The notes under the pieces are model-generated. The model was given only the letters and a program-made list of their open reading frames with translations, made no database searches and was not told the origin of the DNA. This document shows, piece after piece, positions 1 through 48,000 of a stretch of DNA of 64,000 bases. The translations under genes were made by a program, and so were the position numbers. Numbering within the stretch: the stretch's first letter is position 1; each line of letters opens with the position of its first letter. Source of the stretch: Candidatus Omnitrophota bacterium (lineage in GTDB: Bacteria; Omnitrophota; Gorgyraeia; Gygaellales; Profunditerraquicolaceae); assembly GCA_041651035.1 (NCBI GenBank), contig JBAZKC010000001.1:579244-643243 (forward strand), in the 5' to 3' direction.

Positions 1-2
1 CT

Positions 3-12000: not shown

Positions 12001-15000
12001 CACAAGAGGTATGGACTTCTGATGTCCAGAGGGCAAGAAGAGGCGCTTTAACCGCCTACGGCAAGATGATGATAATTCCTCAGATGGTTTCTGTAATGAC
12101 ACCTCCAGGAGAGGATTCAGAGGCTTTTATGTACTTGCAGAGGTCCAATCCTCAATATGAAAGCACCCAGATTGACTGGTTTATGTTTGAATGGGGCCGC
12201 GCTGCGCTATTTGCTGAATCTATCGTAGGGACAGAAACGCGCTACGGATATAACTGCACACGCATGTTCTCTGACAGGGGCTCATTTGAAGTGTTGCTTA
12301 ATAAAGACCTGGGGTATGATAAGAAGTTATCCCATCTCTTTTTATTCTTCCATTATTTCGGGGCCATATTTTCACTTGCCCTTTTAATGACCCTGCCGTT
12401 TATATCTCCTTTCAGCGCTTTTGCTTTTCTCAAGCCGGCTATCGCATTTGCGGCTTCAGCCAATCTGTTAATGGAGGCAATAAATCTCTGCGATTTCATC
12501 AAGCATTTAAGGAAAACCGGATCTTTCTTGATGGCTATGGCATTTACGGTAAAGGATATTATTATTGCATTGCCGGTTTTTGTTTTCTTGATACCATACT
12601 TCTTTAGAGCTGTTTGGCTTGCTAGTAACGAAATTTTCAGTTTTATCCTGACCCGGAAAGATGCACTTTTACAGAAAGTCAGCAACCAGCAGCGTTGGGA
12701 TGATAAAGATTCTGGTATAATGCTTTTCCGTTTGGGAGGTAAAAAGAGATGGCCATTAAACGGTTTATTGGGGCTAATCGGGATAGCCGGCTGGTTAGTC
12801 AATTTGTTTACAGTAACTTCTTATGGCTCGGTAATTATTATTCTCTATTTGGCCGCGGGTATTGTCTTCTTATCAGGAATGTATGTTTGCGGTGCGTTTG
12901 TGGATAGAAAAGGCAATCTTAAGGGCTATAGCTTTTGGGCCATGTTTAAGATGCTGCCGTATTCGATTAGTAAAACAATATCATATTTTCCTGTGGTAGG
13001 TAAATATTGGGATTGGGTGGTTTATAAAATATGTAAACCTTTAGAGAAGGGGCTCATTAATATTCCAACTTCGTGGGGATTGAAAGCACGATTAAAGTTA
13101 TCCAGGCCATTAAAACCTTTTAGTTTAAAATCTCCCACGTTGGTAGGGCGTCTTAGTAAAAATATTGTTACTGGTGGGGTGTTCATTTTCCGAGCCATAA
13201 TCCGCACTATAACAGTTCTAATGGCTTTTGTTATTGGCTTTGGTCCAGCTTTATTAAGCGGGGTACTTAGTAACCCTATTAGCCTAACATTGCTTTTTAT
13301 ATCTCTGCCTTTGATGGTATTTGTCGGTTCGTTCTTTAATGGTTTATTCACTCCTTATTGGATATTGCGCGGAATCTTAAAAAATAATGAATGCCATACT
13401 AAAAAGCAACCCGCTGATTCATCTTCTTCGTCCTTGTCTTCTCCATCTGTGTCTTCTTCACCCTTGGTCTCTCCGCAGCTGGTTAAAAATTTAAGGTATA
13501 ATTCAAGCAACCCGGTGTCTAGTATTAATCCTGATAGAACTTATTTTGATCTAGCCGAAATGTATGCTAGCTCTAGCGCTATTATGAGTCCTTTAGGACG
13601 ATTAGAAAAGCTTTCCATAGAGGTCAATGTTCTTGATATACCAATTGAAAGAACGTCGTTTGGGAATCTGTTGATTAACAACGGATATTCCAAATCGTTT
13701 ATTCAATATTTACTTACTAATCCAGAAGTTAGAATATTTGAAGCTAATCGGGGAAAGTATGTTTCATATAGTATCTTTAAGTTGATAGAGAATTCTACTT
13801 TAAAGGAAGCGTTAGAAATAATAAATAAATATTTCCTACCTCTTAATGAAAATAATCCAGATATTTCTGCTTCGGTAGATTTTGAAGAATTTCTAGATTT
13901 ACAAAATAAATATAAATCCGGAGAACTTAATCTCAATCACAGTAAAGTATCGCAATTTGATGTCATTCTACCTAAAAAGCAAGTGAGGAGTTTTGAAGAT
14001 GCGATTTTACAAGAAAGGATGTTTTTGTTTAATCTTGATAACGAAGGAAAAAAGATGGTTGCAAAGGGAGAGATTGCTGAGATAGTCTCTGCTGGTGGCA
14101 CTTCTGGGAGATTCTTTGGTTATAAGGTAAATATACCTGAAAGTAGAAAAATAAAAGCCATTGTTCCTATCTGGAAAATTATGGGACGGCTATTAAGTAA
14201 TGTTGAAGTTCGTATGAGATATTTGAAATATCTAGTGGAAAATACCGGCAAAGGGCATATACCTTTGGTGATTATGGGCAGTGGTAATAATATTGAGTAT
14301 TTAAAAGAAATAACACGAGGCTATAAAGTTTATCCAGAGGGAGATTTATATTTTTATTCTCAGGGTGAAATAGCAAGACTAAATCCGGCTGAGAAAGATA
14401 TCAGATATTCGGGCGCTCCAATTGATGATGGGAAATATAATCTTCCCCATGGGGAAGACGCAGATGCAAATGTGTCACAATGGTTATCCGATAATGGTGA
14501 GATAGGAGGTATTTTCAGAAATGATGACGGGACATATACTGGAAAGCCAATTGGTCCTTTTGATATTTTTGCTAGATTGGTTTTAAGTAGAAGGCTACTT
14601 GAGTTAAGAGAAAAAGGAGTCAGGGTTATCCATCAAGCAAATGGTGATAATGTAGGGGCTATTTTAGATCCAGCCAAGGCAGCCTATTTGATGAAGAGAC
14701 GCGATATTGACATGTTGGTGCTTTTTGTAAGGAAAAATATGATTTATAGTTTAAGCAAAGATAGCCAAGTTTTTAATGAGCAGATAAGGACTAATGATCA
14801 TTTTGCTTTCCAAAATGGCGTAAAGGATTTCATAGTTATTACCAGAGATGGAAGAGTTATTAGCCATAATTTGCCAAAAGGAGTCAAGCCTATATTAAAA
14901 GAAAGTAAACTATCTCTTACATTTAAAGAGGAAGCTTTAATATCTAATATTGAAGGGCAAGGTGAAAAAGGCGGAGTTCTTGTTCATGCTCTAGGAGAAG

Positions 15001-18000
15001 ATAAGGATATCATCCTAGAACAGCCGTTTTCTGGAGGACAGTACCTCAGCTGCGGGCAACTTTATATCAAAGTAGAATCACTTTTGAAAATGTTCGGCTT
15101 AAATCTAAAAGAATATAGAGATATTTCTCAAGATTCTTTAATGAAAAAAATAAAGGCAGTAGCAACTAATATGAGAACCTATGTTGAGATAAAGCCAATC
15201 AATGTAGGGGATAATAATACAATAAAAATGAGGCCAGCAATACAATTTGTCAGGACTATAGAAAACTTTATAAGTTTAAAAGGAATAAATACCGAGTACC
15301 TTTTAATCAATAGGGATGCTTCTAATGATAGAGAAGGCTATTGTCCAGTTAAGAGCATAGGAGATATTGAGTGGAATATCCCAATCGTCTATTCTATATT
15401 CAGACTCGATAATAATGGGAATTTACAAAAGAATTCTAAATTATTTTCCGAAACCGTTGCCTCATCTCCAACCATAGCCTTGAAAGCTAATGGGTTAAAT
15501 AAAATATCCCCTGAAGATTTAGCAAAGTCATTAGGGTTCAAGGTTGTTGACCGAGAAGCCGGATGGATAACATATCGTGAAGATTATCGATATAGTTTAA
15601 ATGATGTCGAACTCGTAATAGTCCCGCATGGTTTAACCGATGCAGATGTGGAGGGAGTACTTCAGGTTTCTAATAAAAATGATGATCCTAGATATGGATT
15701 AAATGAGACAGGCTATAGGCAAGTAGCTCAAGGAGCTAAAATACTTTGGAATAAATATTCAGCAAGAATTAGAGCAGGGCAACTTGTTTGTTATTATAGC
15801 GGCGTAAATAGAACCGTCCAGACTGCACAAGCATTTTTAGATTATGCTAAAAAGATATGCCCGGAGATTGTTATGGATATTAGGATCTCCGATGCGATTA
15901 GAATGAATTTTGGTGCTTGGGAAGGCACCAAAAAATCTCAGATTGATACAATTCTTTCTGAAGAGGAGAAGATTAGAGCTAAGAAATTTATCGGAAAGAA
16001 TGCGTTTATTAGTTCCCGGGACGGTCAGAGTTTTATTGAATATCTATATGTCGTGAAAGAATTCCTAAATAGTCTACAAGAAAAGCATAGAGGCAAGACG
16101 GTTATCATATTCGGTCATGGAATTTTTATCAAGGCAGTTAGAATTATTTTGCGCACAGGTGGTATCATCTCTGATCCATATTTGGATTGGGATAAAGGCG
16201 CACGAAAGTCTTACAAGTTGGGGATGCCGCTAGTTATGAATGATTCTCAGTTGGAAAATGAAGGTAAGATAGAGATTGCTAATATTTGGCGTAAGAATAT
16301 GGCTTACAGGCATTCATCGGAAGAATTAGCTGCTCATGCTGCAAAAATTCGTTTAGAAAGTTTGAAAATATGGCGTAGGCTTAAAGGTCCGCTTGCAGGA
16401 TCTATGTCGGTGGTTGAGCTTTATACTGTTCTCTTTTTAGATTATCTCAACCCTGAGAATTTCCTTTTCAACCATCCTAAGAGGCTAAGGATTATTCCAA
16501 AAGGTTCTGCAGCAAGCACTTTATATGCCGCAGCGGCGCTTACTGGTTTTCTTGATCCGGAGAGAATAAGCAATATTGATAAGGCTGATTTGGAAATTGT
16601 ACCCACTAGATTTACCCTTAGCGATGCTAGTCTTTATAAATTGGGTACTAGTCTAGAACAAGGAATCGGGCTCGCCTTATCTGGCAAAATTAAGAAAATC
16701 GATTTTCCTGTCTTAATTTTCTTATCGGATGGTTCTATGCAGTTAGGTATCGACCATCAAGCAAAATTTGCTGCTCACATGAAACTTAATAATCTCGCTG
16801 TGGTTATTGATATTAACTATTTACAGAATGCGTATAAAATTGAAGATGTCGACCCGACATTGATATATGATAGTTCCGGTTGTTTAGAAAGATTGAGCGC
16901 TTTATGGGAAGCTTATGGTTGGGAAGTCTTGGAAATTGATGGGCATGATTTTGAGCAAATTCATAGTGCTTATGAAAGAATTGGCCAAGGCGAGAAACCA
17001 TTAGTTATTCTAGCAAGGACTATAAAAGGACGGGGAATCCCACAAATAGAAGGCAGTTTGGGTTATAGCCACAAATTCCCTTCCGAAGATGATTATCAAG
17101 ATGCCCTAAACGCATTACAAGATGAGGTTAACAAATATCAGAAATTGGGATATAGCATAGAATATCCTGAATGGGTGTCGGCGCAAAAAATGGTATTTGA
17201 TAATCAAAAACTTACATTGCCCGAGCTTAAGCTTTTTGGAGACCATGGTTTGATACCCATCGCAGATCCAGTATTATTACAGAAAACCCATTTAGAGAAT
17301 ATCCTTAGAATTTGGTTAGAAGAATCTATCTTGTTGAATCCTAATAAAATATTTGTTTTGAATACAGACAATCCATCTCCCTTTGACCTTACGACGCCCA
17401 TAATGTCTCCGGATAATCATTCGTTTCTTATTTTTACCGGTATTAACGAGAGATTTGCCTTAAATCTAGCAGGTGGTATGTTCATTGAAGGATTGTTTCC
17501 TATCTATATCGGACCAGCAGCCCATATGCTTATTAATGCAGAGGACTGGAAAATGTTAGGCTTGGGTAAGCAAAATATCTTAGTTATTTCTAGATCAGCA
17601 GGATCGGATTTGAGTCATTGGGGACCAGGGCATTTAATTTATGAAGATATAGAGTTTTTTAAGAATCCGTGGTGTCAAGTCTTACAACCAGCCCATGCGT
17701 GGGATTTACTATTGATTCTTGAAAATTACTATAGGAAATACTCTAATGGGAAACCCACATATTTAAGGATGCAGGAGATTTATCCTTTTCAAATCCGGGC
17801 AGATTTGTTTGATACTGAGCAGAAACGTAGAAAAATATACGAGGATGGTTTTTATTTAGCTGACTCATTTGAAGAAAATGCTCCATCAGAGCCAGTTGTA
17901 TTTATTGTTAGCGGTAAAACTGTTTTAGAAGCCCTAAAGGCAGGTCAAACTTTGCGTTCTATGGGGATATCTTTTAGAATATTCAATATCATAAATCTGT

Positions 18001-21000
18001 CTTCAATTAACAAAGAAGAGTTACAAAAATTAACAGCTGACGCTAATAGAATTGTTACTGCGATAGATGCTTTACCTCAGAGTCTTTCTTCGTTGATTTA
18101 TGATACTTTACCAGATAAAAGGTCATGCGTTTTGGCATTTGGTATACGGGATGGCGGAGGGTATGAAGCCGAGGCGGATATTTTTTATAGAAATAAAATC
18201 AATGCCCAGAGTTTTGTTGCTTTATGTTTAAATTCCAGTAGCCCAGTCTCTATAAATATTTTTACCACCAAAGAACTTAAAGGGGAACTAGAGATATTAA
18301 AGGGGAGAAAGATTCATATTGATTATCAGAAAGATGTAGATGGGCCTCAGACTGCTGCTAGATTGGTTAAGGATGTTTTCCGACAAGTAGGAGTTATTCT
18401 TAAGGAGGCCAGCAAAGAATCTGAGGTTTGTGTTTGGATTGGCGAGAGTGACGAGTATATGCAATTTTATTTTATCATCTCCGATTGTTTAAATCCAGAA
18501 AAAAGCGTCAGATTTGAATGTGGGCCGCGCGAATTAACAGCATCAATCATGACAGCAGTTTGCCTGTTCTTCAAAGAAGAAGCAGCCACCCATTCTACAA
18601 ATATTATGCAGCTTATTCTTCAACTCGATAGTACCAATAGGGAGCAAAGACAGCAGGCCGGGGACCTTCTTGTAGGACAGTCACAAGAAGCTATTAGGGA
18701 AATCTTGCGTTCTGTAAATGAAATTAATAGGGTAATAATGACAGCCGCGATTTCCGGCGATTTACAAAAGGCGATAGATGGCATGTTATTGTTAGGGCGT
18801 AGGATTGAGATATTAGGCCGCATAGGCAGCGTTGAAGGCATAGAAGCCATCTTAGACGCGTTGGCAGACTCGGCCGTTGCTTTTACAAACACAGGCTTAA
18901 AAGAGGCTGAAGCGCTTAATAAAATTGCCCTTAACGCAATCGTAAATATAGGCAAGCCCGCGGTTCCATACTTAAAAAAGCATATAAATGATTCACGCCG
19001 GCCCGTACGGCAAACAATCTCGTTAGCGCTTTCGCGCATAGAATCTGCCTCTTCACCAATTAGAGGCCTAAGTTATACCGAAACCCTGCTTGACGGCATT
19101 CGGATAATTAAAATAATAATTAATCCAAGCCATTTCAGGCTCAGGGCGTCAATTCAGGGAAATCTTAGTAACAAGATGCACTGGGATGGCCTTGAAGGTA
19201 TTGTTTATGCGGGTAAAGAACCGCTTTTAGACATCAGCAGTCGTATTTGGAGTATTGATAATCATAAATCCAAGATGGCCCCCGGATTTATTGGAGTTGT
19301 TCCTTTCGGCAATATATTATGGCATCCATATTATGTTCTTTATCAAGATGGACGGGCTTATCACAGATACGGAGAAGAAACGAATATCGCGGCGCGCATG
19401 CGTTATCCCACTTTTGTGTTTTATAAAGACGGGACTTTTAAGTTTGAAGATACTGATTTTAACACCATAGATAGGGGTAATGTTCAAACAATTATAGGTA
19501 CTAACTTGGCAATAATACGCGATAGCAGAGAGGCAGCCTTGCGGGATATCCATTTTGAAGACATACGGCATGTTTTTCGTTTCCCTATAATAAAGGTGAA
19601 GTCAGACTCTAAGAGCGCTTACGGCGGCGATATTGCTATCGGCCGCAAAATTATTTATGGAGATGAAGAGGCAAGAATGAAGGCTTACGCCGGCAGGCCT
19701 CTTGAAATTGAACTCAGCCAGTATGGCATTGATTATTTACAGGCTAAAAAAGCTATAGAGTTTGCCAGTTACCGGATGGTGGAAGACAGGAATAAAGTTT
19801 TTGCGCGCGGCGACGCATATTTAGATGCCAGACAGGGCATAGTTAATATTATATTCCAATATTCGCCATACCCGCAGTTTATTATGACTCGGGATGATGA
19901 TTCTAATTTAGTATTTTACGCATTTGGCGGAAAATCAGGGCAGGAAGGCTTAACATTAGGCAGAATCCAAGATTATCTTATTACTGAAGGAGCCAAAGAT
20001 GCGCTGGTGCTTTGTAACGGAAGCGATGTGTTTGTTGAGCTAAATGGCGCTACTATAATGCCAAGCTGGAACGGGAGGGATCGTTTTACTTCGTTGCTGT
20101 TTGTTTATCCTGAAGGAGTAAATAATTCTTTACCTGTTAATAATAAGAAAGTTCCGGTAGGTAGGTTAAAAGTTAAAACCAGTTCTCCTCTCGGCGCCCT
20201 TATATGTACTGAAGGAATTCAGCGGATACTGGCAAGTTCGCCAATAATAATGATACAAGATAATAATTTCCAGCAAGTCTTAAATCAGATAATCGGCTCT
20301 TCATCCCATCCTTCAAACGCACCGCCTGTAATAAGTATCAGCAGTTCTCCCCTCATCCACCGCATCGCTGTTCTCACCGGAGGCGGCCCAGCCTCAGGGC
20401 ATAACGAGGTAATCTACTCCGTGGTCAAGCAAGCCTCAGAGTACGGCATTGACGTAATCGGCATACCTCAAGGATGGCTGGGCTTAGTTGACGAATCACT
20501 GTTAAAAGAGCATAAGGTGCTTACCTTAAGCGACGTAGAGCCTCACCGCTATGAAGGAGGGACTATCCTTGGCACCAGCCGCACTAATCCTTATCTCAGC
20601 AAAAAAGACCCCAAATACAATATAGAGAACTACAACAGCAAAGAAGCGGCCCTAAAGGCATTCCAGGATGATGAACTCAAAGCCAGCCAGCTCTTGCTTA
20701 ATAACCTGCACAAGTTACACATAGATGCCTTGGTTACATGTGGCGGAGACGACACCAACTCCGTATCCTATATGCTCTTTAATCATACCGGCTTCCCGAT
20801 CATCGGTATGCCTAAGACCATGGATAATGACATAGCTTTCCCTGAACCAGACGCAGACACCTACGGTTTTGACAGCTTCGTGAAAGCGGCAATTCCCATG
20901 GTGCAGGCAGGCATAATTGATGCCCAATCCACCAACCGTCTCTTACTGGTAGAAGTCTTTGGCCGTAACGCCGGTTTTGTGGCTATGGCCATAGGGGCAG

Positions 21001-39000: not shown

Positions 39001-42000
39001 ATTTACTGATGGTAAAGAATAGAAGGAGTCAACAAGTTAATTCGGACTCAGGTCGCTCCAGCTCGCCGGTAGAGGCAGAAACCGAGCATCCGGTGTTAAC
39101 TGAGTTTAAATCAAGGATGCGCTGTGATGGGCTTGAGATTACAGGAGGAATGCAAATAATAAATAAATGGCCGACAACGCAATCTTCTCTCCTGTTGGAA
39201 GATGGAAATTCAATAGAATGGTATTTGTTTAGGATAAGTGACTCCAGATTTCATGAGATATTCGTAGATTTCGGAAGAGTAATTGGTTATGCAGGCGTCT
39301 CAATAACGGCGGATAACGAAGCAGGATTGCTTTTTAATGCTTTTTACCGAGGTAAAAAGATAACTTTTTGGCGGCAGGTTTATACGAAGAGAATAAGGGT
39401 TTTGTCGGAAGAATTAAGGAATTTAGGGTTTGGTATAGTTGATTTCGTTGTTCCTTATCATCAAGTTATCAGTAGTCCCCAACTGGATTTAAGAATTCAT
39501 AAGTATTGTTCTGATAAAAAAAGGCCATATAGTACCTTGAAGGATGCTATCGCAAGGATTAATACAGCCATAGAAGCTGGCCAGCCTATTATTGATACTC
39601 AAGACATAGAAATGGCTACATATAGCGGTTTTCCAGGATATTTCTCTTTTGTCCCCGCAGCCAAATTCTATTTGAGAGAATTGCCTAAGGATTTCGGGAT
39701 ATTGTTTGAAACTAGGTCTGATAAAGATAAAACAGAGGTAGAATTAAGCCGGGAAGATGAAAGTATTATTCGGGCAATACTTGCGGTTAATAACGAAGTA
39801 AGAGAAATAGATATAATTAATTTTCTGTCGGGTAGAATGCTTAAGCTCGACTTATCTCTGGCTTCCAGCTCACCGGTAAGAATTTTGACGAGAGCCAAGG
39901 ATGCCTTCTACGGAAAATTAGCGGACTCCAGGCGCAGCGAGGCGATTTCTTTATTGGCTAAAGCCAAAGAAGGTATTACATCAGCGAGAGTCAAGGTAAG
40001 TAATGAAGAATGGGAAAAATTAGCAATACAAGGATGCAAAGATATTTGGCAGGCAGCCACTGACTATAGAAAAGCCGCAAAGCTTTGCAAGCTAATAGGT
40101 AGCTATAGAAAGGCAAAATTATTAGAGCGCGCAGCTTCAATCCTAGAAAAAGAAGAAATTAGAGTCTGGGAGGCGCTTGTTTCCGGCAGAAGAAAACAGC
40201 CAAAACAACGGATAAACCTGGGCAAGGTTGTCTTAGGGCCTCTTGACACGGATCCCTCCATCATCATCCTTAAGTTTACGGATGAAGATGCCGCAGGGGC
40301 AAGCCAAGGTGAGCAAGGCCGGACCGCCAGCAGCCCCATTGCTACTATCTTACCTATGTTTTTTGCCGCAGGCATTGACTGGTTGGCTAAGGAAGGATTT
40401 TTGGGCCCCGAATTTACCCCGATTATGATCAACGGGCGGCCGCTTTCTGCTGATGATATACGTATCTGCGAAGAGCTGGGTGGGCAATACCGGGAAAGAA
40501 TCGGAGATCCTAAGCGCTATATCCGTTATTGCCTACCCGTATTATTAGCTAAAACCAGGAACATGTCCAAGCTGCGCGCTTGGAACCAGGAGATAATAAC
40601 CTGGATTAAAGACTATCAGTACACGTATCGACTCGGTAAGCCCAGCCTTTATGTCCGCAATTGCCTGCCTGTTTTATTAGACAGGGTTAGAGATATAGAC
40701 GAGTTAAACGCCTGGAATAAGGCAATAATGAAGCTGATTCAGACCTACAAAGAAATGTTCTACAATCCTTATTATTATGTTAAGAATACGCTGCCTGTTT
40801 TATTATCCAGAGCCAAAGACATAGCTGAGCTGGATTCCTGGAGCGAAGAGATGATGAAGCTGCTGGAGGAATCTTGTCTTCACGGCTTCAAGTCCGTAGA
40901 AGATCGTCTGAATCAGCTTATCGCAAAAATCCGGGGAGATAATCCATCGGACAAAGGCAGCCGAACAGGCTCCGGTCCTTCGGCTTCTTCGCCTTTGGGC
41001 GCAGTAGTGCTCATAGAGGCAAGCCAGCGGGAGCGCGCCAGTTCGCCGGTGGTATTAAAAAATAGAACCGCCCCCGCATCAAATCCATCCTCTCCATATC
41101 CCGAGCTATTTATAACAAGACGATTCAGGGAGACCGATACCCAGTTTAACCGGCAGCTCTCAAGGACAATAAATAATAGAATTACCGAGAATAATGCCCG
41201 CGGCAGCACAACCAGGGTACTTTGGATTGGCCCGGGCAGGGGATATGAATTATATGAACTGCTATATTTAATTGATCATGAGTTTGGGTTTAGATCAGAT
41301 GCCATAGAGCTCTTTGCGTTAGACAAACGGGATTTGCTGGAAAAAGACCGGGATAATTTATTGGATTTCTTTAAGAGGGAGATGAAAAAAGAATTATCAC
41401 CCGAGGTAACCGCAGTTTATCTGGCGCGCGTAAAGCAGGCGCTGCACAGTATAGATTTGAACGAAGCAAACCCACCTTTTAGAGAAGGCTTCTTTGATGT
41501 TATCGTAGTGGGTCATGATGTAGGATTATATTTTAGGGATAAAGTAGCGATATATAACAAGCTTAAAAGAACATTAAAACAAGATGGAGTTGCTTTCGCC
41601 GACCTTTATCTTATTAAGCCGATAGAGCTTAAAGAAACAATTGGCCAGTGGGGGAGCGACTTTAATTTTCTTCCTTCCATAGGCTTACAGATAACTAATC
41701 ATAACCCTTTGTTAATGATTCCCCTAGAATTTCTGAAGTCAAAGCAGATTGCGGTAACAGGCGACCCCATATTTGCAAGCTATTACAGTTTATCAGCCAG
41801 CTCGCCGGTAGAGGGAAAACCGGGGTTACTGCCGGGGTTAATCGTTGCTATTTCGCTGGCGGATGTAGGAGCAACGATAGTAGTAGCAAAGGATGGTGAG
41901 CAGGTACTTGAATATTCTGGTTCATTACTAAAAGTCATCGAACTGCTGCCGTATTTAAGGAACAGCGGAGCAGCAGGCATTTACCTCTACGGGGGTCTTT

Positions 42001-45000
42001 TTCCGCAGAGCGAACTCTCTAAACTGGTGCATACGCAGCCTGACCGCGGAGAGCATCTTATCCAGAGTGGTAATGCGTATGTGTTAGTAAAAGACTACCA
42101 AGGTAAAAGAATAGAGGTAAACGGTATTATCTTTGACGACATAAACGGCAATCCATTTTCGCATATAGGTATGCTGAAAGATATTACTAATCTGCGAAGC
42201 GGGTTAAACATAAATCCCAAGCTCTCCAGCGATAACGCAAGCAAGGATTTTAACAGGTTAATCAAGGCGGCAGCCAAGTTAGGGATGAAGGTATATGTTG
42301 ATTTTATCCCCTGGCTTTCTCCGGATGCGGTGAATGGGAGAAATTATAAATTGACCTTCTATCGTGAGCTCGAATCCGATGCTTGGGAAAAGGCAAAGCG
42401 CGAACCAGCTTTCATCACTCAATTACTGCGAGATAATAGAACATGGGCGGCAGTAAAGATTACAGAACGTGGCACTGAGCGTCTAATCTTAGTAAAATTA
42501 TGCCCATGGAATAGCGCTGACCAGGTCATGCTGAACTTCTGGCTGCCTGAAGTTCAGAATTATTTGGCTGCGGCAGCTATAAAGTTATACAAAAGAGGGG
42601 TGCGCGGCCTGCGTGCAGACCTGGCAGCATACATGCTCAATAGGAATATGCAGGATTTTGCCGGCTTAAGAGGGGATGCCGATTTAAGCGGTGAACCTTG
42701 GTCCAAGATTATCAGCAGGGTGAAGAAAAAGACCGACAATAATGACGCGATGACCTGGATCATGGAAGCTTATGAAAGAGACTATGATCATCCCGGAGTT
42801 CCCCTCCTGCTGAAACTAGGCCCTTCGGTGAAGGTATATTACAAAAACCTGCATGACGATTTCGTAAGATCCAATCCGGAATGGTTTTTTGGTTCATTGA
42901 AATTCGCATGGGAAAAGCGCGGCTATTACGTTATTTTTCCCACTATGTACGACGATATGTCTCTGGCCGGCCTGAGCGGTTCACGCGAGGGATTCCTGAT
43001 GATACTTTTGGCCATGGCTTATCTTGGCGTACCGGTGATGATTGATCTGCGCGAGTGGTCAGGGCATCATGGGCAGATGATTACTATGCCCGGAGGGATA
43101 AATCAAGATACGCGCAAAGTCTGGCATCCGGTAGTCACAGAGAAAGAGCTGGAAATGCGCAAAGATTTCGGTGGATTCCAAAAGGCGTTGGCGGAAGGTC
43201 CGGTTAACAGGTTGATTAAAAACTTCTTTAATACGGTGTCAGGTAGCAGCCATAAAGACGTAGCCATATATTGGCAGGCTAATAATATCCAGGTCTGTTT
43301 TAGGGGGCAAGAAAAGGCTGAGACTTTTACCGTGGATATGAATTTTAAGTCCACGCATATTCCTTGTGAATGGTCTATCAGCGTGTCGCCTCGGAGCAAT
43401 TGGATTAAAAAGCATGCGGGGGGATTAAACGAAAGATTGGAGGAATACGCGGTAAGTTTGAGCGGGCTGGAGGCTACGAGCAAGCTAGTAGAGGATGCGC
43501 GCAGGCTGATAGAGGAAGACCTAAGTTTATCCGAGGCAGCGAAAGAAGCAGAAAGAGAAAAATTAGAGGGAAGATTGGAGCTGTGCGGCATAGAGAACCT
43601 AATCTTATCCGAGGCGGATAAGATGGAGATTAAAACCCTCATAAATATAATTTATGATACGCTACATGCGAATAGCGCCGAGATTGAGAAAATAGCGAAA
43701 GGCGCGATACCCCCGGCAGAAGAAACAGCAATCTTAGAAAGAATACAGAAGAATATCCTGCAGTGTTTTACGAGAATAGAAGAATATATGCAGCCCGGCA
43801 AATTTAACAAAGAGGTGAGCGAAAAGGTGGCTGGGATTGTCGATGAGGCAAAGAGAGGGGTTCTTTTAGACTTAGAAAAATTAAAGACCAGCTCTCCGCT
43901 AAAAATTTTAGGCGTTCGTGAAAACGCTTACAAATCAAGGGACACCCTCCCGATTAGCAAAATGGGTGTCCCTGCTCTGGGTGGAAGGGTGTCCCTAGTT
44001 AAGGCATCTTCGCCGGTAGAGAGCGCAGATTATCGTCAGGCCGAGCCAGAAACTTCCGGGGATGCAGAGAAAGGAAATTTTTGCCATGAGCTGGAAACAA
44101 TTAGACTTTTTGGAAGTTATCGCGATGTCTCTCTGGATCAGAATTTACCGGATAGCCCAAAGGGTCCGGATGATCGTACACTCATGGATTTACTCCCTTG
44201 CGAGGGGATAGATCCTTTTACGCTCGCAGCTCTTAGGGAATATTTTCGCAAAATGCTGGCTGACCTTGCCTGGCTTGCAGATATAAAGAAAAAATACTAC
44301 AAACAAAAACCAGTAACTCTCAGCAATAGGCAATTACTTATTTTCACTCTCCTATGCAGGGCAATTATGGAGCCTTTTCTTGTGGGCCTCATAAAGAAAG
44401 AAGACATCTTGCGTAGTTGCCAGGTGCGAGAGGAGAAATTTATAAATGATCTTTCAGATTTGCTGGATTTAAGTTACGAGCGGGGGGAAACATTAACAGG
44501 ATTAGAATTGAGTAAAATCTTCGGGATCCCTTCTGGAAGGAGTGGAATCTTGATGATAGAAAGCGTGGCAAGAAGAAAAGTAGGGTTGTTTGCTTTGTTA
44601 AAGCCCGGTTTATTCTCTTCTGACTTTTTTAGCGAGATGCCTTCCAATTCTTCGACTCCGTCCAGGATTGGCCCTAAGCGAGGCCAAAGGCCGGGTCGAA
44701 CAACGGTCAGCTCGCCTTTACAGGACTCCCTGCCGGACTCCACACAGTCGCCGCTATATTTGCTCAATGCTCCTAAGCAGCCGGCAGGCTTATTGCCCGG
44801 CATTCCTAATCCGCCGGCAGGTTTACTATCCGATGTGCCCGAGGTTTTCAGGCTGGAATTTGATAAGCAGGATTTTTACCTCTTTATGCGTGAGGGCGAC
44901 CACCGCAGGGTCTATGAAAAATTAGGGGCGCACTTAGCACGGCAGAAAGGTGAGAGGGGGATATATTTTGCGGTCTGGGCGCCTAATGCCCAGGATGTAT

Positions 45001-48000
45001 CGGTAATCGGAGACTTCAATGGCTGGGATGATAATAGGCATCACATGGATAATAATGGCGGCATCTGGCACATCTTTATCCCGGGTGTGGATAAGGGCTG
45101 CCGCTACAAATACTGGATCAGAGGTCAGGACGGCTGGGGCCGGATGAAGATTGACCCCTATGCTTTCTTTAGCGAATTTCCCACCCAGGCTAATCTACAC
45201 ACTACCGCTTCTATTGTCTGGGATATTTCTTCCTTTGAATGGCAGGATCAAGATTGGATGTCTAAGAGAAAAGAAATACAGGCATTAGATAAGCCTATCT
45301 CGGTCTATGAATTGCATTTGGGATCCTGGCGCCGCCATAAGGACGGCAGCTGGCTGAATTACCGCGAACTTGCCCACGAATTAGTTGCCTACCTAAGAAA
45401 TGAGGCTGAAGACTCCGGCCTGGAATACACCCACGTAGAATTAATGCCGGTAGCAGAGCATTTTTTCTATGGTTCCTGGGGTTACCAAAACAGCAACTAC
45501 TTTGCGCCTACTTCCCGTTACGGCCGGCCAGAGGATTTTATGTATTTTGTAGACTACCTGCACCGGCATAATATTGGTGTAATTATTGACTGGGTCCCGG
45601 CGCACTTCGCCAAACTTAATGAGACAAAAGAATATGATCAGGGCTTGACTTATTTTGACGGCAGCGAACTCTATTCACACGATAATCCGCAGGAGGGCGA
45701 CCATCCGGACTGGGGAACCAGGATATTCAATTACGGCCGCCACGAAGTCAGAAGTTTTCTTATCAGCAACGCCTTGTTCTGGCTGGATAAATACCATATT
45801 GACGGCTTACGGGTGGACGCGGTTGCCTCTATGATTTACCGCGACTATAGCCGTAAACCTGGCGAATGGGTAACCAACGAAGACGGCGACAACGAAAACT
45901 GGAAGGCCATAAGGTTTCTCCAGATGTTTAACATTGCCGCATACGCAGAATATCCGGGAATTCTGACTATTGCCGAAGAGTCGACAAATTGGCCGGGGGT
46001 TTCCCGGTCTATTGACATAGAAAGGCTTGAGAAAGAGAAAAGGCTTGAGAAAGAGGGAAGGCTTGAGAAAAAGGATCGGGTAAAAGAGTTGGGTTTTTCC
46101 ATGAAGTGGGGCATGGGCTGGATGCATGATGTCCTGAAATTCTTTGCCCGAAATCCGGAGCATCGCAGCTATCACCTTGGCGAGGTTACTTTCTATCTCT
46201 TGTATGCATTTACGGAGAATTTTATCCTGGCATTATCCCACGATGAGGTAGTACACGGCAAGGGTTCTATAAAGAATAAGATGCCGCCGAAAGATGCCTG
46301 GCAGCAGTTTGCTAACATTAGACTTTTATTAGCACTGCAGTATCTCATGCCAGGCAAAAAACATGATTTTATGGGCATGGAATTTGCCGCGCATAAAGAA
46401 TGGAACCATGATGATCAGCTAGACTGGTACCTTTTGCAGTACCCGTTGCATTCTTCTCTAAAGCATTTTGTCCGCGAGTTGAATATATTTTACCGCGATA
46501 ACCCAGCATTGTATGAGATTGATTTTGATTCCCGCGGTTTTGACTGGATTGACTGCAGCGATGGAGATAATACTATAATCAGCTTTATCCGTCAGGGCTA
46601 TTGTGCCGAACAGCCCTTAGTGGGAGTTTTTAACTTTACTCCGGTGGTACGGCGCAACTACCGTATCGGCTTGCCTTTTGGAGAAACATGGAAAGAGGTT
46701 TTTAACAGTGATTCCGAAGTTTATGGCGGCAGCAACGTAGGTAATCCGGGAGTAATTCAGGCAGAAAATATCCCCATGCATCAGCGTGGCCACTCAGTAT
46801 ACCTTACCTTGCCTCCTTTGGGCATGACGGTATTAAAAAGAAGATCCAGTGAAGTGGACGCCTCCAGCTCGCCGATGCTTGGCAAGATCAGAGAAGAAGG
46901 AATCGCCGAAATGATAACAGCAGGCTTTAAGCGGCCATCTAAGTCTGGGATTAGCAGGGTAATAAGCGCGAGGGTCGTTAAGCAGTATACTTTACCTGAC
47001 AGAAAGCCCCGCCCGATTGAGCAGCTGGCCGGAGAAATAGTCCACATTGCTGCCTTGGTGGCTCCATATATCCTGCGTTTTATAGCAAATAACGGAATAG
47101 ATTTTAACCAACTTAGAGCTAATGAAGAAGCATCTATCAGAATGAGCCACCTCCTTATCAATTTCTTCCGGAATAACCCGTCATTCAATGGGGAGATTGT
47201 AATAGGAGAAAAGCAGAGATATGGTATCCCGGCTATCATGAGCTTAGGGAAAAAATTTGGCAGAGGTATAATAAGATTGCTTTTAGCCGCTGATGTTCTT
47301 GAACAATCCGGGAATCTGGTTGATACTAATGCGGGGTCTTTAACTTCGGTAATAATGATAATGGAAAAGAGAAGATTATCTGTTTGTCCGGATGACCCCT
47401 ATATGGATAAAATGGTTATCGGCAGGACCGAGCAAGAGATAGAGTTAAGATTGGATATGAGCGAAAATGAATTGATAGAAACTTTATGCTCCGGATACGG
47501 AGTTACTAAGGATAATCTGGCCTTTGCGATTTTATTTAGAGACAGGCACAAGCCCCTGATTGATAAATTGATAGAATTGGGGATTAAGGTTGAGACCAAG
47601 GATTTTATAAAAATGAGAGAAAAAGTCAAGCAGGATCGCGTTTATAAAAACGGAAACCTTTATCTTTTAGACAACGGCGATCTAATTCCGTTCATCGGCT
47701 TGCTTACCGGAAAGATACATTGTTTGTTGGGAGTAGGTAAGCCTGCCGAAGGAGAAATCCTCAGTAATTTAATAGGTATGTTAGGCGGCAAGATGTACCG
47801 TAGAGTAGCCAGCTATGAATCGTTAACAGGGGATAAATCAATTGACTTATTTTCTGACCGGCAGCGGTTTAGTCCTATAGAAAAGGCGTTTTTAAGAAGC
47901 GCGAACCTCATTGACCCGCAATTATCCCTCAGACAGGGGCAGCAATCATGGGACAGGGTTTGTAGAGAGTCAAGGCCTAAAGACGGAGTTTTTGCCGCGG

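What the first reader, a model, noticed from the sequence alone, without database searches (positions are those of the whole stretch)
14050..46850. A whole glycogen / upper-glycolysis enzyme set is fused in frame inside the giant ORF
In order along one frame I recognise these domains: a transketolase-like domain (16.3-18.2 kb), PPi-phosphofructokinase (20.35-21.6 kb), a UDPGP-type sugar-1-P uridylyltransferase (22.3-24.0 kb, plus a divergent copy at 14.05-15.1 kb), a GlgA-like glycogen synthase (27.2-28.8 kb), a GT35 glucan phosphorylase (28.8-30.7 kb), phosphoglucomutase (31.5-33.3 kb), glucose-6-P isomerase (33.6-35.5 kb), a GH13 amylase-like domain (41.9-43.1 kb) and the branching enzyme GlgB (44.8-46.85 kb). 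Together these cover F6P to G6P to G1P to UDP-Glc to branched glucan and back. These are normally separate cytosolic proteins in a glg operon. I do not know of any described case where they are fused, without stops, into one polypeptide that also carries secretion signals, LysM and M23 domains.
Basis: partly seen in the sequence, partly recalled or inferred. Interest (0 to 1): 0.92.

Follow-up and report, generated by a model that had tools for sequence, protein, structure and literature searches.

The report
Glycogen-pathway enzymes fused in giant ORF
The whole 64-kb window is one uninterrupted gene, most likely from an Omnitrophota bacterium, that strings about a dozen glycogen and upper-glycolysis enzymes into a single membrane-anchored chain; such giant genes are already described, but here a short repeated peptide motif divides the chain into protein-sized units and may mark where it is cut.

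Summary

The claim that this is undescribed is wrong. Two preprints (2023, 2026) describe Omnitrophota giant proteins with sugar-metabolism modules, so this is a new member of a known kind.

Three points go beyond those texts. Paired TM hairpins with LysM loops place the enzymes on one side of the membrane, probably the cytoplasmic side. Some domains look degenerate (GT35 lacks the PLP lysine). The motif [AST]SSP[VLI] occurs 45 times (about 1 expected), never inside a domain, and cuts the chain into units of median 338 aa. Relatives carry different motifs at equivalent junctions, which suggests processing sites.

The parts
1..64000 (+). One open reading frame (frame +3, first full codon at nt 3), open at both window ends; at least 21,332 codons
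   Evidence: 0 stops in frame +3 against 718-2,002 in the other frames. In-frame SD+start combinations are depleted: 16 observed against 26 +/- 5 in codon shuffles.
40..300 (+). Peptidase_M23 (peptidoglycan endopeptidase) domain, in the N-terminal part that has no delimiter motif
   Evidence: Pfam 96 bits, E 1.3e-27; NCBIfam MepM/ShyA-type hits.
14544..14723 (+).
   Evidence: Pfam UDPGP 24-25 bits against a gathering score of 22; only profile positions 163-221 match.
15612..16140 (+). Histidine phosphatase (His_Phos_1, PGAM-like) domain
   Evidence: Pfam 52 bits, E 7.5e-14.
16290..18078 (+). Transketolase-like domain. The ThDP (PP) domain is clear; the C-terminal domain is sub-threshold. Conserved GDG is SDG, and two conserved His are replaced.
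   Evidence: NCBIfam NF004559 166 bits. PDB 6yak and human TKT match, with the alignment showing the substitutions.
20361..21503 (+). Phosphofructokinase with the PPi-type signature (GGDD, PKTMDND)
   Evidence: Pfam PFK 183 bits over profile 1-277/277. The best PDB hit is the PPi-PFK 9dqm.
21579..22169 (+). Hairpin module 1: signal-peptide-like helix ending AFA|HYF, LysM-like loop, second TM helix
   Evidence: Hydropathy; sequence; 60% identical over 203 aa to module 2; dN/dS 0.27 between the copies.
22980..23940 (+). UDPGP-family sugar-1-phosphate nucleotidyltransferase domain (divergent)
   Evidence: Pfam UDPGP 42 bits. PDB UDP-glucose pyrophosphorylases at E 1e-3 with GHG, NGD and KKGG motifs aligned. 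Homologous domains lie in the same ORF as the PGI-like domain in L028, L082 and L113.
25896..26057 (+). Pair of hydrophobic helices (short hairpin) before the methyltransferase/GlgA block
   Evidence: Hydropathy.
26481..26906 (+). SAM-dependent methyltransferase domain
   Evidence: Pfam Methyltransf_23 80 bits.
27204..28760 (+). GlgA-like glycogen/starch synthase (GT5). The EPCG motif is kept; the KxGGL lysine is Q (SQVGGIADV).
   Evidence: Glyco_transf_5 109 bits; TIGR02095 203 bits; PDB glycogen/starch synthases; sequence.
28941..30600 (+). GT35 alpha-glucan phosphorylase-like domain, full length. The PLP Schiff-base lysine is replaced by arginine (EACGTSHQRTALNG).
   Evidence: TIGR02094 72 bits. 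PDB 9l6i aligns both halves and pairs R with the PLP lysine. Sequence.
30906..31493 (+). Hairpin module 2: signal-peptide-like helix (AFA|HYF), LysM-like loop, TM helix
   Evidence: weak Pfam LysM hit at about nt 31200.
31515..33266 (+). Phosphoglucomutase, all four domains, with the catalytic Ser loop TASHNP and the Mg site DADADR
   Evidence: PGM_PMM_I-IV; TIGR01132 123 bits; motifs.
33560..35540 (+). PGI-like double-SIS domain of a Pfam-invisible family, with invariant GIGGQH, SSKSGSTDE, VGGRWT, NES and GTGDQHISYQQ
41115..41592 (+). CheR-type methyltransferase-like domain (sub-threshold)
   Evidence: Pfam CheR 24.8 bits against a cut-off of 27.
41850..43250 (+). GH13-like (beta/alpha)8 domain of a Pfam-invisible family; D151, R255, D257 and E306 invariant and D368 nearly invariant, at GH13 regions I-IV
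   Evidence: 78 representative clusters; alignment A2; profile against PDB hits only GH13, best 9e-9; AF2 pLDDT 89.1; Foldseek top 50 all GH13.
44883..46840 (+). 1,4-alpha-glucan branching enzyme GlgB (CBM48 + GH13 + C-domain) with the catalytic motifs present
   Evidence: NCBIfam NF003811 842 bits, above the cut-off of 741; Pfam CBM_48, Alpha-amylase and Alpha-amylase_C; motifs.
47172..47595 (+). Class II fructose-1,6-bisphosphatase (GlpX) domain, partial profile coverage; lies beyond the finding's end
   Evidence: Pfam FBPase_glpX 62 bits against a cut-off of 27; TIGR00330.
13455..62858 (+). 45 copies of the delimiter motif [AST]SSP[VLI], all between domains. Examples: nt 20343, 21582, 27135, 28794, 30732, 30882, 36114, 41040, 41799, 44709, 49272.
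   Evidence: 45 observed against about 1 expected. Synonymous codons vary, so the selection is at protein level. 0 of 45 lie inside domain envelopes, P = 1.3e-9. Different motifs occupy the equivalent position in relatives.

Best explanation
The window is an internal piece of one real giant gene (more than 21,332 codons) of an uncultured Omnitrophota-type bacterium. It belongs to the already described class of giant 'multi-enzyme' proteins.

Between about nt 14,000 and 47,600 the gene encodes what is normally a glg operon plus the hexose-phosphate steps of glycolysis and gluconeogenesis, collapsed into one translation unit. In order, the domains are: UDPGP-like, histidine phosphatase, transketolase-like, PPi-PFK, UDPGP-like, methyltransferase, GlgA-like, GT35-like, PGM, a divergent PGI, a divergent GH13, GlgB and GlpX.

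Shown:
- The single ORF.
- The identity of the domains.
- The absence of internal start signals.
- Recurrence of the same domains in long ORFs of relatives, and as separate adjacent genes in others.

Inferred:
1. Paired TM helices with small LysM-like outside loops tether the chain to the cytoplasmic membrane and return it each time to the same side. The enzymes, which need PPi, NTPs and sugar phosphates, therefore act on the cytoplasmic face as a co-localised, fixed-ratio glycogen and hexose-phosphate module.
2. Catalysis is probably carried by the well-conserved modules (PFK, PGM, PGI-like, GlgB, GH13-like, probably GlgA). GT35-like (no PLP lysine) and TKT-like (lost His and Gly) are probably altered or non-catalytic.
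3. The strictly conserved [AST]SSP[VLI] motif at module junctions is a recognition site, most likely for proteolytic processing. If so, the chain behaves as a bacterial polyprotein that yields protein-sized units (median 338 aa), some of them membrane-anchored.

My probabilities: real giant ORF with these fused enzymes, about 0.97. Membership of the Omnitrophota multi-enzyme class, about 0.85. Cytoplasmic-face arrangement, about 0.65. Delimiters as cleavage sites, about 0.4.
For: ORF and lack of internal starts:
- No stops in frame +3.
- SD+start combinations depleted, and none at a domain start.

Domains. PGI-like fold. GH13-like profile and fold.

Taxon:
- The closest proteins come from Omnitrophica/Omnitrophota MAGs.
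- The closest named genome is an Omnitrophota MAG at 70% identity, with an ORF of at least 7,327 aa.

Fusion and fission range:
- The PGI-like domain stands alone in about 32 loci and lies in ORFs of at least 1,000 aa in about 71.
- L005 has a PGM-containing gene, then the PGI-like gene, then a PFK gene, side by side.
- P0032 is a 1,269-aa PGM + PGI-like protein. P0006 is a 3,702-aa PFK + PGM protein.
- L097 has GlgB and the PGI-like domain in one ORF of at least 7,343 aa.

Topology:
- Paired hydrophobic helices at 21.6/22.1, 25.9/26.0 and 31.0/31.4 kb, and none between 13.3 and 21.6 kb.
- LysM-like loops with an AXA motif lie between the helices.
- The two hairpin copies are under purifying selection, dN/dS 0.27.

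Delimiters:
- 45 against about 1 expected, selected at protein level.
- 0 of 45 inside domains, P = 1.3e-9. Module sizes are protein-like.
- P0074 has 27 copies. Other lineages carry R[SA]E[LVM]R, GAR[LM]/ARLA, [AS]SLGG or KDGG at equivalent junctions.
- 77 short homologues contain none.

Literature: the class is described, and peptide evidence for a giant Omnitrophota ORF is cited.
Against: - No transcript or peptide data exist for this locus. The start and end of the ORF are outside the window, and the source genome was not found in either collection.
- Topology rests on a hydropathy scan only. The cluster at 37.6-38.5 kb could hold an odd number of helices, which would put GH13-like, GlgB and GlpX on the other side.
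- West-Roberts et al. predicted an extracellular location for such domains.
- No processing protease was identified. Only three HExxH motifs in Pfam-dark modules and a weak metallopeptidase hit were seen.
- The closest relative, L059, shows no obvious delimiter, so the feature is not universal.
- Several domains score below the curated family cut-offs (TKT, GT35, PGM, GlgA, PFK equivalogs), so their exact activities are uncertain.
Confidence: 0.62

Rival explanations
1. It is an ordinary glg/glycolysis operon misread as one ORF, or a sequencing or assembly artefact or pseudogene. The domains would really be separate genes.
For: In some relatives the same enzymes are separate adjacent genes (L005). 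A repeated module of about 590 nt exists that could in principle mislead an assembler.
Against: - There are no stops of any kind in 21,332 consecutive codons, while the other frames have 718-2,002.
- SD+start signals are depleted and absent at domain starts.
- The repeat copies are only 73% identical at nucleotide level, with dN/dS 0.27.
- Dozens of relatives carry the same domains in ORFs of 3,000 to more than 7,000 aa.
- Domains remain under clear conservation: GlgB scores 842 bits, and the PGI-like domain is 55-70% identical to homologues.
Confidence: 0.02
2. The enzyme modules face outward (periplasm or cell surface) and pre-process sugars released from prey cell walls before uptake, as West-Roberts et al. 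speculated for Archaeovorins.
For: - The same polypeptide carries an M23 peptidoglycan peptidase, LysM-like domains and signal-peptide-like helices.
- The published prediction placed such domains outside the cell.
- The TM count in the 37.6-38.5 kb cluster is uncertain.
Against: - PPi-PFK, the UDPGP-like domains, GlgA, PGM and TKT need PPi, NTPs, NDP-sugars, glucose-1,6-bisphosphate and ThDP, which are cytoplasmic metabolites (established biochemistry).
- Hydrophobic helices between enzyme blocks come in pairs with the LysM-like domain in the short loop, so the loop, not the enzymes, is the outside part.
- The 2026 preprint also reads sugar-metabolism content as compatible with the cytoplasmic face.
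- Stand-alone homologues of the PGI-like domain sit beside cytoplasmic genes.
Confidence: 0.12
3. The chain is not cleaved. It works as one huge membrane-tethered scaffold (a covalent metabolon), and the SSP[VLI]-type motifs are linker or docking signals (for example for the HEAT/TPR arrays downstream) or modification sites rather than protease sites.
For: - Large HEAT and TPR arrays, which typically bind short peptides, lie at 50-58 kb in the same ORF.
- No dedicated protease was identified.
- Ser-Ser-Pro could be a phosphorylation or glycosylation site.
- The closest relative lacks an obvious delimiter.
Against: - The motifs differ completely between lineages (SSPV, RSELR, GARL, SLGG, KDGG) yet sit at equivalent junctions. 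This is the pattern seen for polyprotein cleavage sites that co-evolve with a protease. A shared modification chemistry would not explain it.
- Ten pairs of motifs bracket 11-50-aa spacers.
- The GG-ending variants resemble double-glycine sites of C39 peptidases, which are reported to be common in these proteins.
Confidence: 0.3
4. Most of the enzyme-like modules are pseudoenzymes used as glucan- or sugar-binding parts of an adhesion or predation machine, not as a working pathway.
For: - GT35-like has Arg in place of the PLP lysine.
- TKT-like has lost GDG and two His.
- GlgA-like has lost the KxGG lysine.
- Both UDPGP-like domains are very divergent.
- Many scores are below the family cut-offs.
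Against: - GlgB passes its equivalog cut-off with catalytic motifs intact.
- PFK and PGM keep their catalytic and substrate motifs.
- The PGI-like and GH13-like families keep invariant residues at the expected catalytic positions across dozens of lineages.
- The PGI-like family also occurs as a stand-alone gene between PGM and PFK genes.
Confidence: 0.1

Closest known systems
Omnitrophota giant 'multi-enzyme metabolic cluster' proteins (bioRxiv 10.64898/2026.06.07.730766) and 'Archaeovorins' (West-Roberts et al. 2023, bioRxiv 10.1101/2023.11.21.568195)
   Same: - A single ORF of tens of thousands of codons with many TM helices.
- Many different Pfam families tiled along it, with none dominating.
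- A sugar-metabolism module (starch synthase PF08323, GT1, PGM), methyltransferases, HD domains and HEAT/TPR scaffolding.
- Nearest homologues in Omnitrophota MAGs.
   Different: - No dockerin, C39, S8 or SecA domain is seen in this window.
- PFK, GlgB, transketolase, UDPGP and GT35 are not named in the main texts of those papers.
- Delimiter motifs and cleavage points are not described there.
- The full ORF length and the genome are unknown here.
Conventional bacterial glg operon (glgB-glgX-glgC-glgA-glgP) with pgm, pgi and pfk as separate cytosolic proteins
   Same: The same reactions are represented: G1P activation, chain elongation, branching, glucan breakdown, G1P/G6P/F6P interconversion and the F6P/F1,6BP step.
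   Different: - All are in one polypeptide with TM hairpins.
- The activating enzyme is UDPGP-like rather than GlgC.
- PGI and one GH13 belong to divergent families that Pfam does not detect.
- The phosphorylase lacks the PLP lysine.
- The PFK is PPi-type.
Viral and other polyproteins with short protease sites that co-evolve with the lineage (picornavirus 3C, potyvirus NIa, nidovirus 3CL)
   Same: - One long translation product.
- Units the size of proteins, separated by a short, strictly conserved motif that differs between lineages but keeps its position.
- Occasional short spacer peptides between two sites.
   Different: - Cellular, not viral.
- No protease has been identified and cleavage has not been shown.
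- The cargo is metabolic enzymes rather than replication proteins.
- This is an analogy of mechanism only.
Canonical phosphoglucose isomerase (Pfam PF00342), especially short bacterial PGIs (T. maritima 2q8n, T. thermophilus 1zzg, B. bacteriovorus 7nss)
   Same: - Motif resemblance at the phosphate loop (SKSGSTDET against SKTFTTQET), the Arg loop (GGRWT against GGRYS), xES, and GTGDQHISYQ against GTNGQHAFYQ. The canonical motifs are quoted from memory.
   Different: - 11-17% identity.
- No Pfam or NCBIfam hit; only 1 of 32 members gets a weak PF00342 hit.
- About 700 aa, with a large helical insertion.
- The catalytic Lys equivalent has not been assigned.
- Activity is untested.

Membership tests
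Omnitrophota giant multi-enzyme ORF class | Single uninterrupted ORF longer than 10,000 codons | tested here: met
   At least 21,332 codons without a stop, open at both ends.
Omnitrophota giant multi-enzyme ORF class | Many distinct Pfam families tiled along the chain, none dominating, including the sugar-metabolism module (PF08323, PF00534, PGM) plus methyltransferase, HD and HEAT/TPR content | tested here: met
   compared with the class definition read.
Omnitrophota giant multi-enzyme ORF class | Encoded by an Omnitrophota genome | tested here: inconclusive
   The source genome was not found. The best protein and locus matches are Omnitrophica/Omnitrophota MAGs at 48-70% identity. The PGI-like family also occurs in Elusimicrobiota and a few other phyla.
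Phosphofructokinase (PF00365), PPi-dependent type | Full PFK domain, with Asp in GGDD and Lys in PKTxDND instead of the Gly/Gly of ATP-dependent enzymes | tested here: met
   Profile 1-277/277 at 183 bits. GGDD and PKTMDND are present and the best PDB match is a PPi-PFK. NCBIfam equivalog cut-offs are not reached. The phosphoryl donor is not testable here.
Phosphoglucomutase (alpha-D-phosphohexomutase superfamily) | Four domains I-IV, a catalytic phosphoserine loop (T/S-A-S-H-N-P) and a DxDxDR metal site | tested here: met
   PGM_PMM_I-IV are all above their cut-offs. TASHNP and DADADR are present. TIGR01132 scores 123 bits, below its equivalog cut-off of 778.
GlgB branching enzyme (GH13_9) | CBM48 + GH13 catalytic domain + C-domain, a score above the curated equivalog cut-off, and the Asp/Glu/Asp motifs | tested here: met
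   NF003811 842 bits, above 741. GLRVDA, IAEES and LSHDE are present.
GlgA glycogen/starch synthase (GT5) | GT5 N-domain and GT1-type C-domain, an N-terminal KxGGL motif and a C-terminal E-x7-E/EPCG motif | tested here: inconclusive
   The domains are present at 109 and 203 bits and EPCG is kept. The KxGGL lysine is Q (SQVGGIADV), and the equivalog cut-offs are not reached.
GT35 alpha-glucan phosphorylase | PLP bound through a conserved lysine in the EASGTSxMK motif | tested here: not met
   The motif reads EACGTSHQR, and R aligns with the PLP lysine of 9l6i. The fold-level landmarks of the family are otherwise present along the full length. I therefore call it GT35-like and do not file it as a working phosphorylase.
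Phosphoglucose isomerase (SIS superfamily) | Double-SIS fold closest to PGI | tested here: met
   [not shown]
Phosphoglucose isomerase (SIS superfamily) | Sequence membership of PF00342, and isomerase activity | tested here: not met
   The window has no Pfam or NCBIfam hit. Only 1 of 32 family members gets a weak PF00342 hit. hhalign links only the GGRW/YS motif. Activity is not testable here. Gene context (PGM, then this gene, then PFK in L005) supports a PGI role.
GH13 alpha-amylase family (clan GH-H) | (beta/alpha)8 barrel with conserved regions I-IV and the Asp/Glu/Asp catalytic residues | tested here: met
   D151, R255, D257 and E306 are invariant and D368 nearly invariant in the family. 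The profile hits only GH13 in PDB, at regions I and II, best E 9e-9. The fold matches only GH13. The single sequence gets no Pfam PF00128 hit.
Transketolase | PP, Pyr and C-terminal domains, with the GDG...N ThDP/metal motif and conserved histidines | tested here: inconclusive
   The PP domain is clear at 166 bits. The Pyr domain is not detected and the C-domain is sub-threshold. GDG is SDG, and two conserved His are replaced by P and S in the alignment to 6yak.
UDPGP (PF01704) sugar-1-P uridylyltransferase | A match above the Pfam gathering score over most of the domain | tested here: inconclusive
   Copy 2 scores 42 bits but covers only profile positions 287-407. Copy 1 scores 24-25 bits and covers only 163-221. 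PDB alignment of copy 2 shows GHG, NGD and KKGG motifs. Nucleotide specificity is unknown.
Class II FBPase (GlpX) | A match above the Pfam gathering score | tested here: met
   62 bits against a cut-off of 27, covering profile positions 43-180 of 307. It is below the TIGR00330 cut-off.

The most novel reading that the evidence does not exclude
Giant multi-enzyme ORFs of Omnitrophota and related bacteria are cellular polyproteins. Lineage-specific 4-5-residue motifs sit at equivalent module junctions: [AST]SSP[VLI] here and in P0074, and R[SA]E[LVM]R, GAR[LM]/ARLA, [AS]SLGG or KDGG in other lineages. On this reading they are cleavage sites that co-evolve with a processing protease. One translation event would then deliver a fixed-ratio set of protein-sized enzymes, some of them membrane-anchored. 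This would explain how a whole operon can be expressed without internal starts, and it would supply the cleavage points that West-Roberts et al. said were missing.

A second, smaller novelty is that the Pfam-invisible PGI-like family may be the 'missing' PGI of the many Omnitrophota genomes that lack a detectable pgi (67 of 176 have one in the 2026 preprint).
Probability: 0.4. Interest if true: 0.88.

Novelty: new member of a known kind. Interest (0 to 1): 0.55.

Why it matters
The finding as written, metabolic enzymes fused inside a giant ORF, is real. But it belongs to a class already described for Omnitrophota, so on its own it adds one well-dissected example.

It shows an almost complete glycogen and hexose-phosphate pathway in one reading frame, with a plausible membrane topology and a domain-by-domain view of which enzymes look active.

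The follow-up matters more. The open question for these proteins is whether they work as one chain or are cut, and if so where. The junction motifs found here give exact, testable positions. Any metaproteome from a sample containing such organisms can be searched for peptides that start or end at these motifs.

The two enzyme families that Pfam misses (PGI-like and GH13-like) also matter for metabolic reconstruction. Pathway gaps reported for Omnitrophota, such as missing PGI, may come from annotation rather than biology.

Tried and rejected
- Exact-word searches for the source or close relatives found nothing. This covers genome contigs and metagenome contigs with window peptides, and the word-indexed protein search for nt 41700-44399. 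The exhaustive HMMER search was needed for that stretch.
- Direct sequence searches failed for the PGI and GH13 claims: Pfam, NCBIfam and PDB phmmer, and a PDB profile search for the PGI-like family.
- My first self-BLAST of the whole 21-kaa protein returned nothing for technical reasons. The chunked version worked.
Printing P0074 was wasteful, but it was what exposed the SSSPV motif.
- Cryptic operon with internal starts: rejected. The promoter and terminator scan was uninformative, with counts only about 2 sd above the shuffles.
- Repeat-driven misassembly: rejected, because the hairpin copies are 73% identical at nucleotide level with dN/dS 0.27.
- The delimiter as a nucleotide-level element (recombination scar or RNA site): rejected, because both Ser codon families and all Pro codons are used.
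- tblastn with the window's domains detects few partners in relatives' loci other than PGM, UDPGP-like, PFK and GlgB. Synteny beyond these could not be assessed. The closest relative, L059, shares only the PGI-like domain at that sensitivity.

Full report
**1. The observation**

Frame +3 of the window has no stop codon in 64,000 bases, while the other five frames have 718 to 2,002. The window is therefore an internal part of one ORF of at least 21,332 codons. Chance cannot produce this, and neither can a reassigned stop codon, because all three stops are absent in frame and common out of frame.

Recovered directly:
- PFK, 183 bits with full profile coverage.
- All four PGM domains.
- Glyco_transf_5/GlgA (109 bits in Pfam, 203 bits for TIGR02095).
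- GlgB, 842 bits, above the NCBIfam equivalog cut-off of 741.
- Transketolase N-terminal domain, 166 bits.
- UDPGP twice (42 bits, and a marginal 24-25 bits).
- The TIGR02094 alpha-glucan phosphorylase family, 72 bits (below its cut-off of 191.7).

An M23 peptidase lies at the very start of the window. HEAT/TPR arrays and an HD domain lie downstream.

**2. The two claims that direct searches did not recover**

PGI (33.6-35.5 kb) gave nothing in Pfam, NCBIfam or PDB sequence searches. Yet this stretch is one of the best conserved in the ORF.
- It has 64 homologues, most at 50-66% identity and about 700-940 bits. Most are 'hypothetical proteins' of about 700 aa from Omnitrophota and Elusimicrobiota with no Pfam domain.
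- Their alignment (A1) has invariant GIGGQH, SSKSGSTDE, VGGRWT, NES and GTGDQHISYQQ motifs. As I recall the canonical PGI motifs, these resemble its phosphate loop, arginine loop, catalytic Glu and His motifs.
- A profile still found nothing in PDB sequences, and only 1 of 32 members gets a weak PF00342 hit.

GH13 (41.9-43.1 kb) likewise had no direct hit, and the word-indexed search found no homologue.
- The exhaustive HMMER search found 78 representative clusters at 30-42% identity over the full 460 aa, nearly all inside long proteins.
- In their alignment (A2), D151, R255, D257 and E306 are invariant and D368 is nearly invariant. These fall at GH13 regions I-IV.
- The profile hits 136 PDB sequences, and all of the 60 best that are listed are GH13 family members (best 9e-9).
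- The model (pLDDT 89.1, pTM 0.91) matches only GH13 folds among the top 50.

Both claims are therefore right at the level of fold and family. Both domains belong to families that standard annotation misses.

**3. State of the individual enzymes**

- PFK carries GGDD and PKTMDND, the Asp/Lys pair typical of PPi-dependent enzymes, and its best solved relative is a PPi-PFK.
- PGM keeps TASHNP and DADADR.
- GlgB keeps its catalytic motifs.
- GlgA keeps EPCG but has Q in place of the KxGGL lysine.
- The GT35-like domain has the family landmarks along its whole length, but Arg replaces the PLP Schiff-base lysine (EACGTSHQR against EASGTSGEK in 9l6i). I therefore do not file it as a working phosphorylase.
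- The transketolase-like domain has SDG for GDG and has lost two conserved histidines.

The set is thus a mixture of probably active and probably altered modules.

**4. Organism and relatives**

The source genome was not found. The nearest proteins and loci are from Omnitrophica/Omnitrophota MAGs. The closest named genome is an Omnitrophota MAG from Lac Pavin sediment, at 70% identity in the PGI-like domain, with an ORF open across the whole 22-kb locus (at least 7,327 aa).

Across 110 loci that carry the PGI-like domain:
- It stands alone in about 32 and lies in ORFs of 1,000 to more than 7,300 aa in about 71.
- PGM sits directly upstream in the same ORF in many of them.
- GlgB shares the ORF in L097.
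- A UDPGP-like domain shares it in L028, L082 and L113.
- In L005 a 3,016-aa NTP-transferase + PGM gene, the 704-aa PGI-like gene and a 698-aa PFK gene lie side by side. This follows the pathway order and supports the PGI assignment.

So the same modules exist as separate genes, as small fusions and as giant fusions. The window is at the far end of that range.

**5. Known or new**

- Seymour et al. 2023 report ORFs longer than 20 kb in most Omnitrophota classes and cite peptide evidence for one of them.
- West-Roberts et al. 2023 list GT5 glycogen-synthase, GT1, PGM, glucose-phosphate isomerase, FBPase, aldolase and TPI domains in 'Archaeovorins'.
- The 2026 preprint defines a 'multi-enzyme metabolic cluster' class with a sugar-metabolism module.

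This is a new member of a known kind. PFK, GlgB, transketolase, UDPGP and GT35 are not named in those main texts.

**6. Topology**

A hydropathy scan finds no TM-like segment between 13.3 and 21.6 kb. After that come pairs of helices at 21.6/22.1, 25.9/26.0 and 31.0/31.4 kb.

Two of the pairs are copies of one module (60% identity over 203 aa; dN/dS 0.27). The module is a signal-peptide-like helix ending PT[SP]AFA|HYF, a LysM-like loop of about 90 aa, and a second helix (weak LysM hit).

The simplest reading is that the loops are outside the membrane, on the peptidoglycan, and that the enzymes stay on the cytoplasmic side. That also fits their need for PPi, NTPs and sugar phosphates. Beyond 37.6 kb the helix count is uncertain.

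**7. The delimiter**

[AST]SSP[VLI] occurs 45 times against about 1 expected, and all copies lie after nt 13455.
- Both serine codon families are used, so the selection is on the peptide.
- None of the 45 falls inside domain envelopes that cover 36.6% of the region (P = 1.3e-9).
- The motif cuts the chain into protein-sized units: PFK 413 aa, GlgA 553, GT35-like 646, GH13-like 697, CheR-like 253, with a median of 338 aa.
- Ten pairs of motifs bracket spacers of 11-50 aa.
- The longest motif-free units hold domain groups that are also fused elsewhere, namely hairpin + PGM + PGI-like and GlgB + GlpX.
- P0074 (7,546 aa) has 27 copies.

Other lineages carry other over-represented motifs: R[SA]E[LVM]R, GAR[LM]/ARLA, [AS]SLGG and KDGG.
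- Six proteins carrying three different motifs have one 10-19 aa before the equivalent start of the GH13-like domain.
- Four lineages have one within 7 aa of the end of the PGI-like domain.
- No motif lies inside either domain.
- 77 short homologues contain no SSP[VLI].

Neither preprint mentions such motifs, and West-Roberts et al. say that cleavage points are unknown. No paper in the searchable library combines Omnitrophota with 'polyprotein'.

I read the motifs as recognition sites, most likely for processing, at a probability of about 0.4. A docking or modification role is the main alternative. No protease was identified. Three HExxH motifs in Pfam-dark modules, one of which overlaps a weak metallopeptidase hit, are only leads.

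**8. Verdict**

The most likely function is a membrane-tethered glycogen and hexose-phosphate module on the cytoplasmic face, expressed as one translation unit and possibly processed at the delimiter motifs.

Overall interest is moderate for the finding as given. It would be high if the delimiters prove to be cleavage sites.

Noticed in passing
window 13455-62858 (45 sites; e.g. 20343, 27135, 28794, 41799, 44709): The motif [AST]SSP[VLI] recurs 45 times (about 1 expected), only between domains, and splits the chain into protein-sized units. Ten pairs of motifs bracket spacers of 11-50 aa. Six sites have the extended form SSP[LV]G[AVS][LV][LIV].
   Followed up: yes
P0074, P0100, P0101, P0108, P0120, P0121, P0127; loci L017, L019, L020, L022, L038, L044, L046, L069, L093, L097, L105, L109, L115: Long ORFs of other lineages carry their own over-represented junction motifs (R[SA]E[LVM]R, GAR[LM]/ARLA/ASRLA, [AS]SLGG, KDGG) at positions equivalent to SSP[VLI] relative to the shared GH13-like and PGI-like domains. 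The GG-ending forms resemble C39 double-glycine sites.
   Followed up: partly
window 33560-35540; alignment A1; loci L001, L005, L007-L116: A conserved family of about 700 aa, invisible to Pfam and NCBIfam, has a PGI-like double-SIS fold and is widespread in Omnitrophota and Elusimicrobiota. It occurs stand-alone or fused (often after PGM). It may be the PGI that KO-based surveys report as missing in many Omnitrophota genomes.
   Followed up: yes
window 41850-43250; alignment A2; P0072-P0149: A GH13-like domain family of about 460 aa with an intact Asp/Glu/Asp set is found almost only inside long multi-domain proteins. Its fold is close to amylases, GlgE and 4-alpha-glucanotransferases. Its substrate is unknown.
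   Followed up: yes
window 21579-22169 and 30906-31493: A duplicated module: signal-peptide-like helix with an AXA (AFA|HYF) signal-peptidase-type site, a LysM-like loop, and a second TM helix. If signal peptidase cuts there, that would be a second route to splitting the chain.
   Followed up: partly
window 30330-30372: The GT35-like domain has Arg where all phosphorylases have the PLP-binding Lys (EACGTSHQRTALNG). It is a likely pseudo-phosphorylase or has a changed chemistry.
   Followed up: partly
window 24639, 37308, 38643: Three HExxH motifs lie in modules with no Pfam match. The one at 38643 follows two TM helices and overlaps weak Tox-MPTase2/DUF2268 hits. They are possible membrane metalloproteases and candidate processing enzymes.
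   Followed up: no
window 1-13454: The N-terminal 13.4 kb differs from the rest. It has an M23 peptidase at nt 40-300, two clusters of about six TM helices (9.8-10.3 and 12.3-13.3 kb), no Pfam hits otherwise, and no delimiter motif at all.
   Followed up: no
window 36114-41040: Seven consecutive delimiter-bounded modules of 154-373 aa have no Pfam, NCBIfam or PDB match. Two of them contain TM helices.
   Followed up: no
window 50000-58500 and 60225-60716: Downstream of the enzyme block lie HEAT and TPR arrays with diverged internal repeats (e.g. 55890-56993 against 56475-57635), and an HD_5 phosphohydrolase domain.
   Followed up: no
window, 2-kb bins: G+C is uneven. It is 0.45-0.48 over the well-conserved enzyme modules (20-24, 28-34, 40-46 kb) and 0.36-0.41 over most of the rest. 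This may reflect different constraint on, or different origins of, the modules.
   Followed up: no
P0003, P0004, P0005: Proteins of about 1,200 aa that fuse GlgA (PF08323) with a phosphorylase (PF00343, PF11897) exist outside giant ORFs. The GlgA-GT35 neighbourhood seen in the window is therefore an older, independent fusion.
   Followed up: no
L003 1-2954 and 14735-23810: The 1,269-aa PGM + PGI-like protein P0032 sits beside a MalK-like ABC ATPase. It is flanked by ORFs of 4,298 and 3,915 aa, and the second has a PEP-utilising domain.
   Followed up: no
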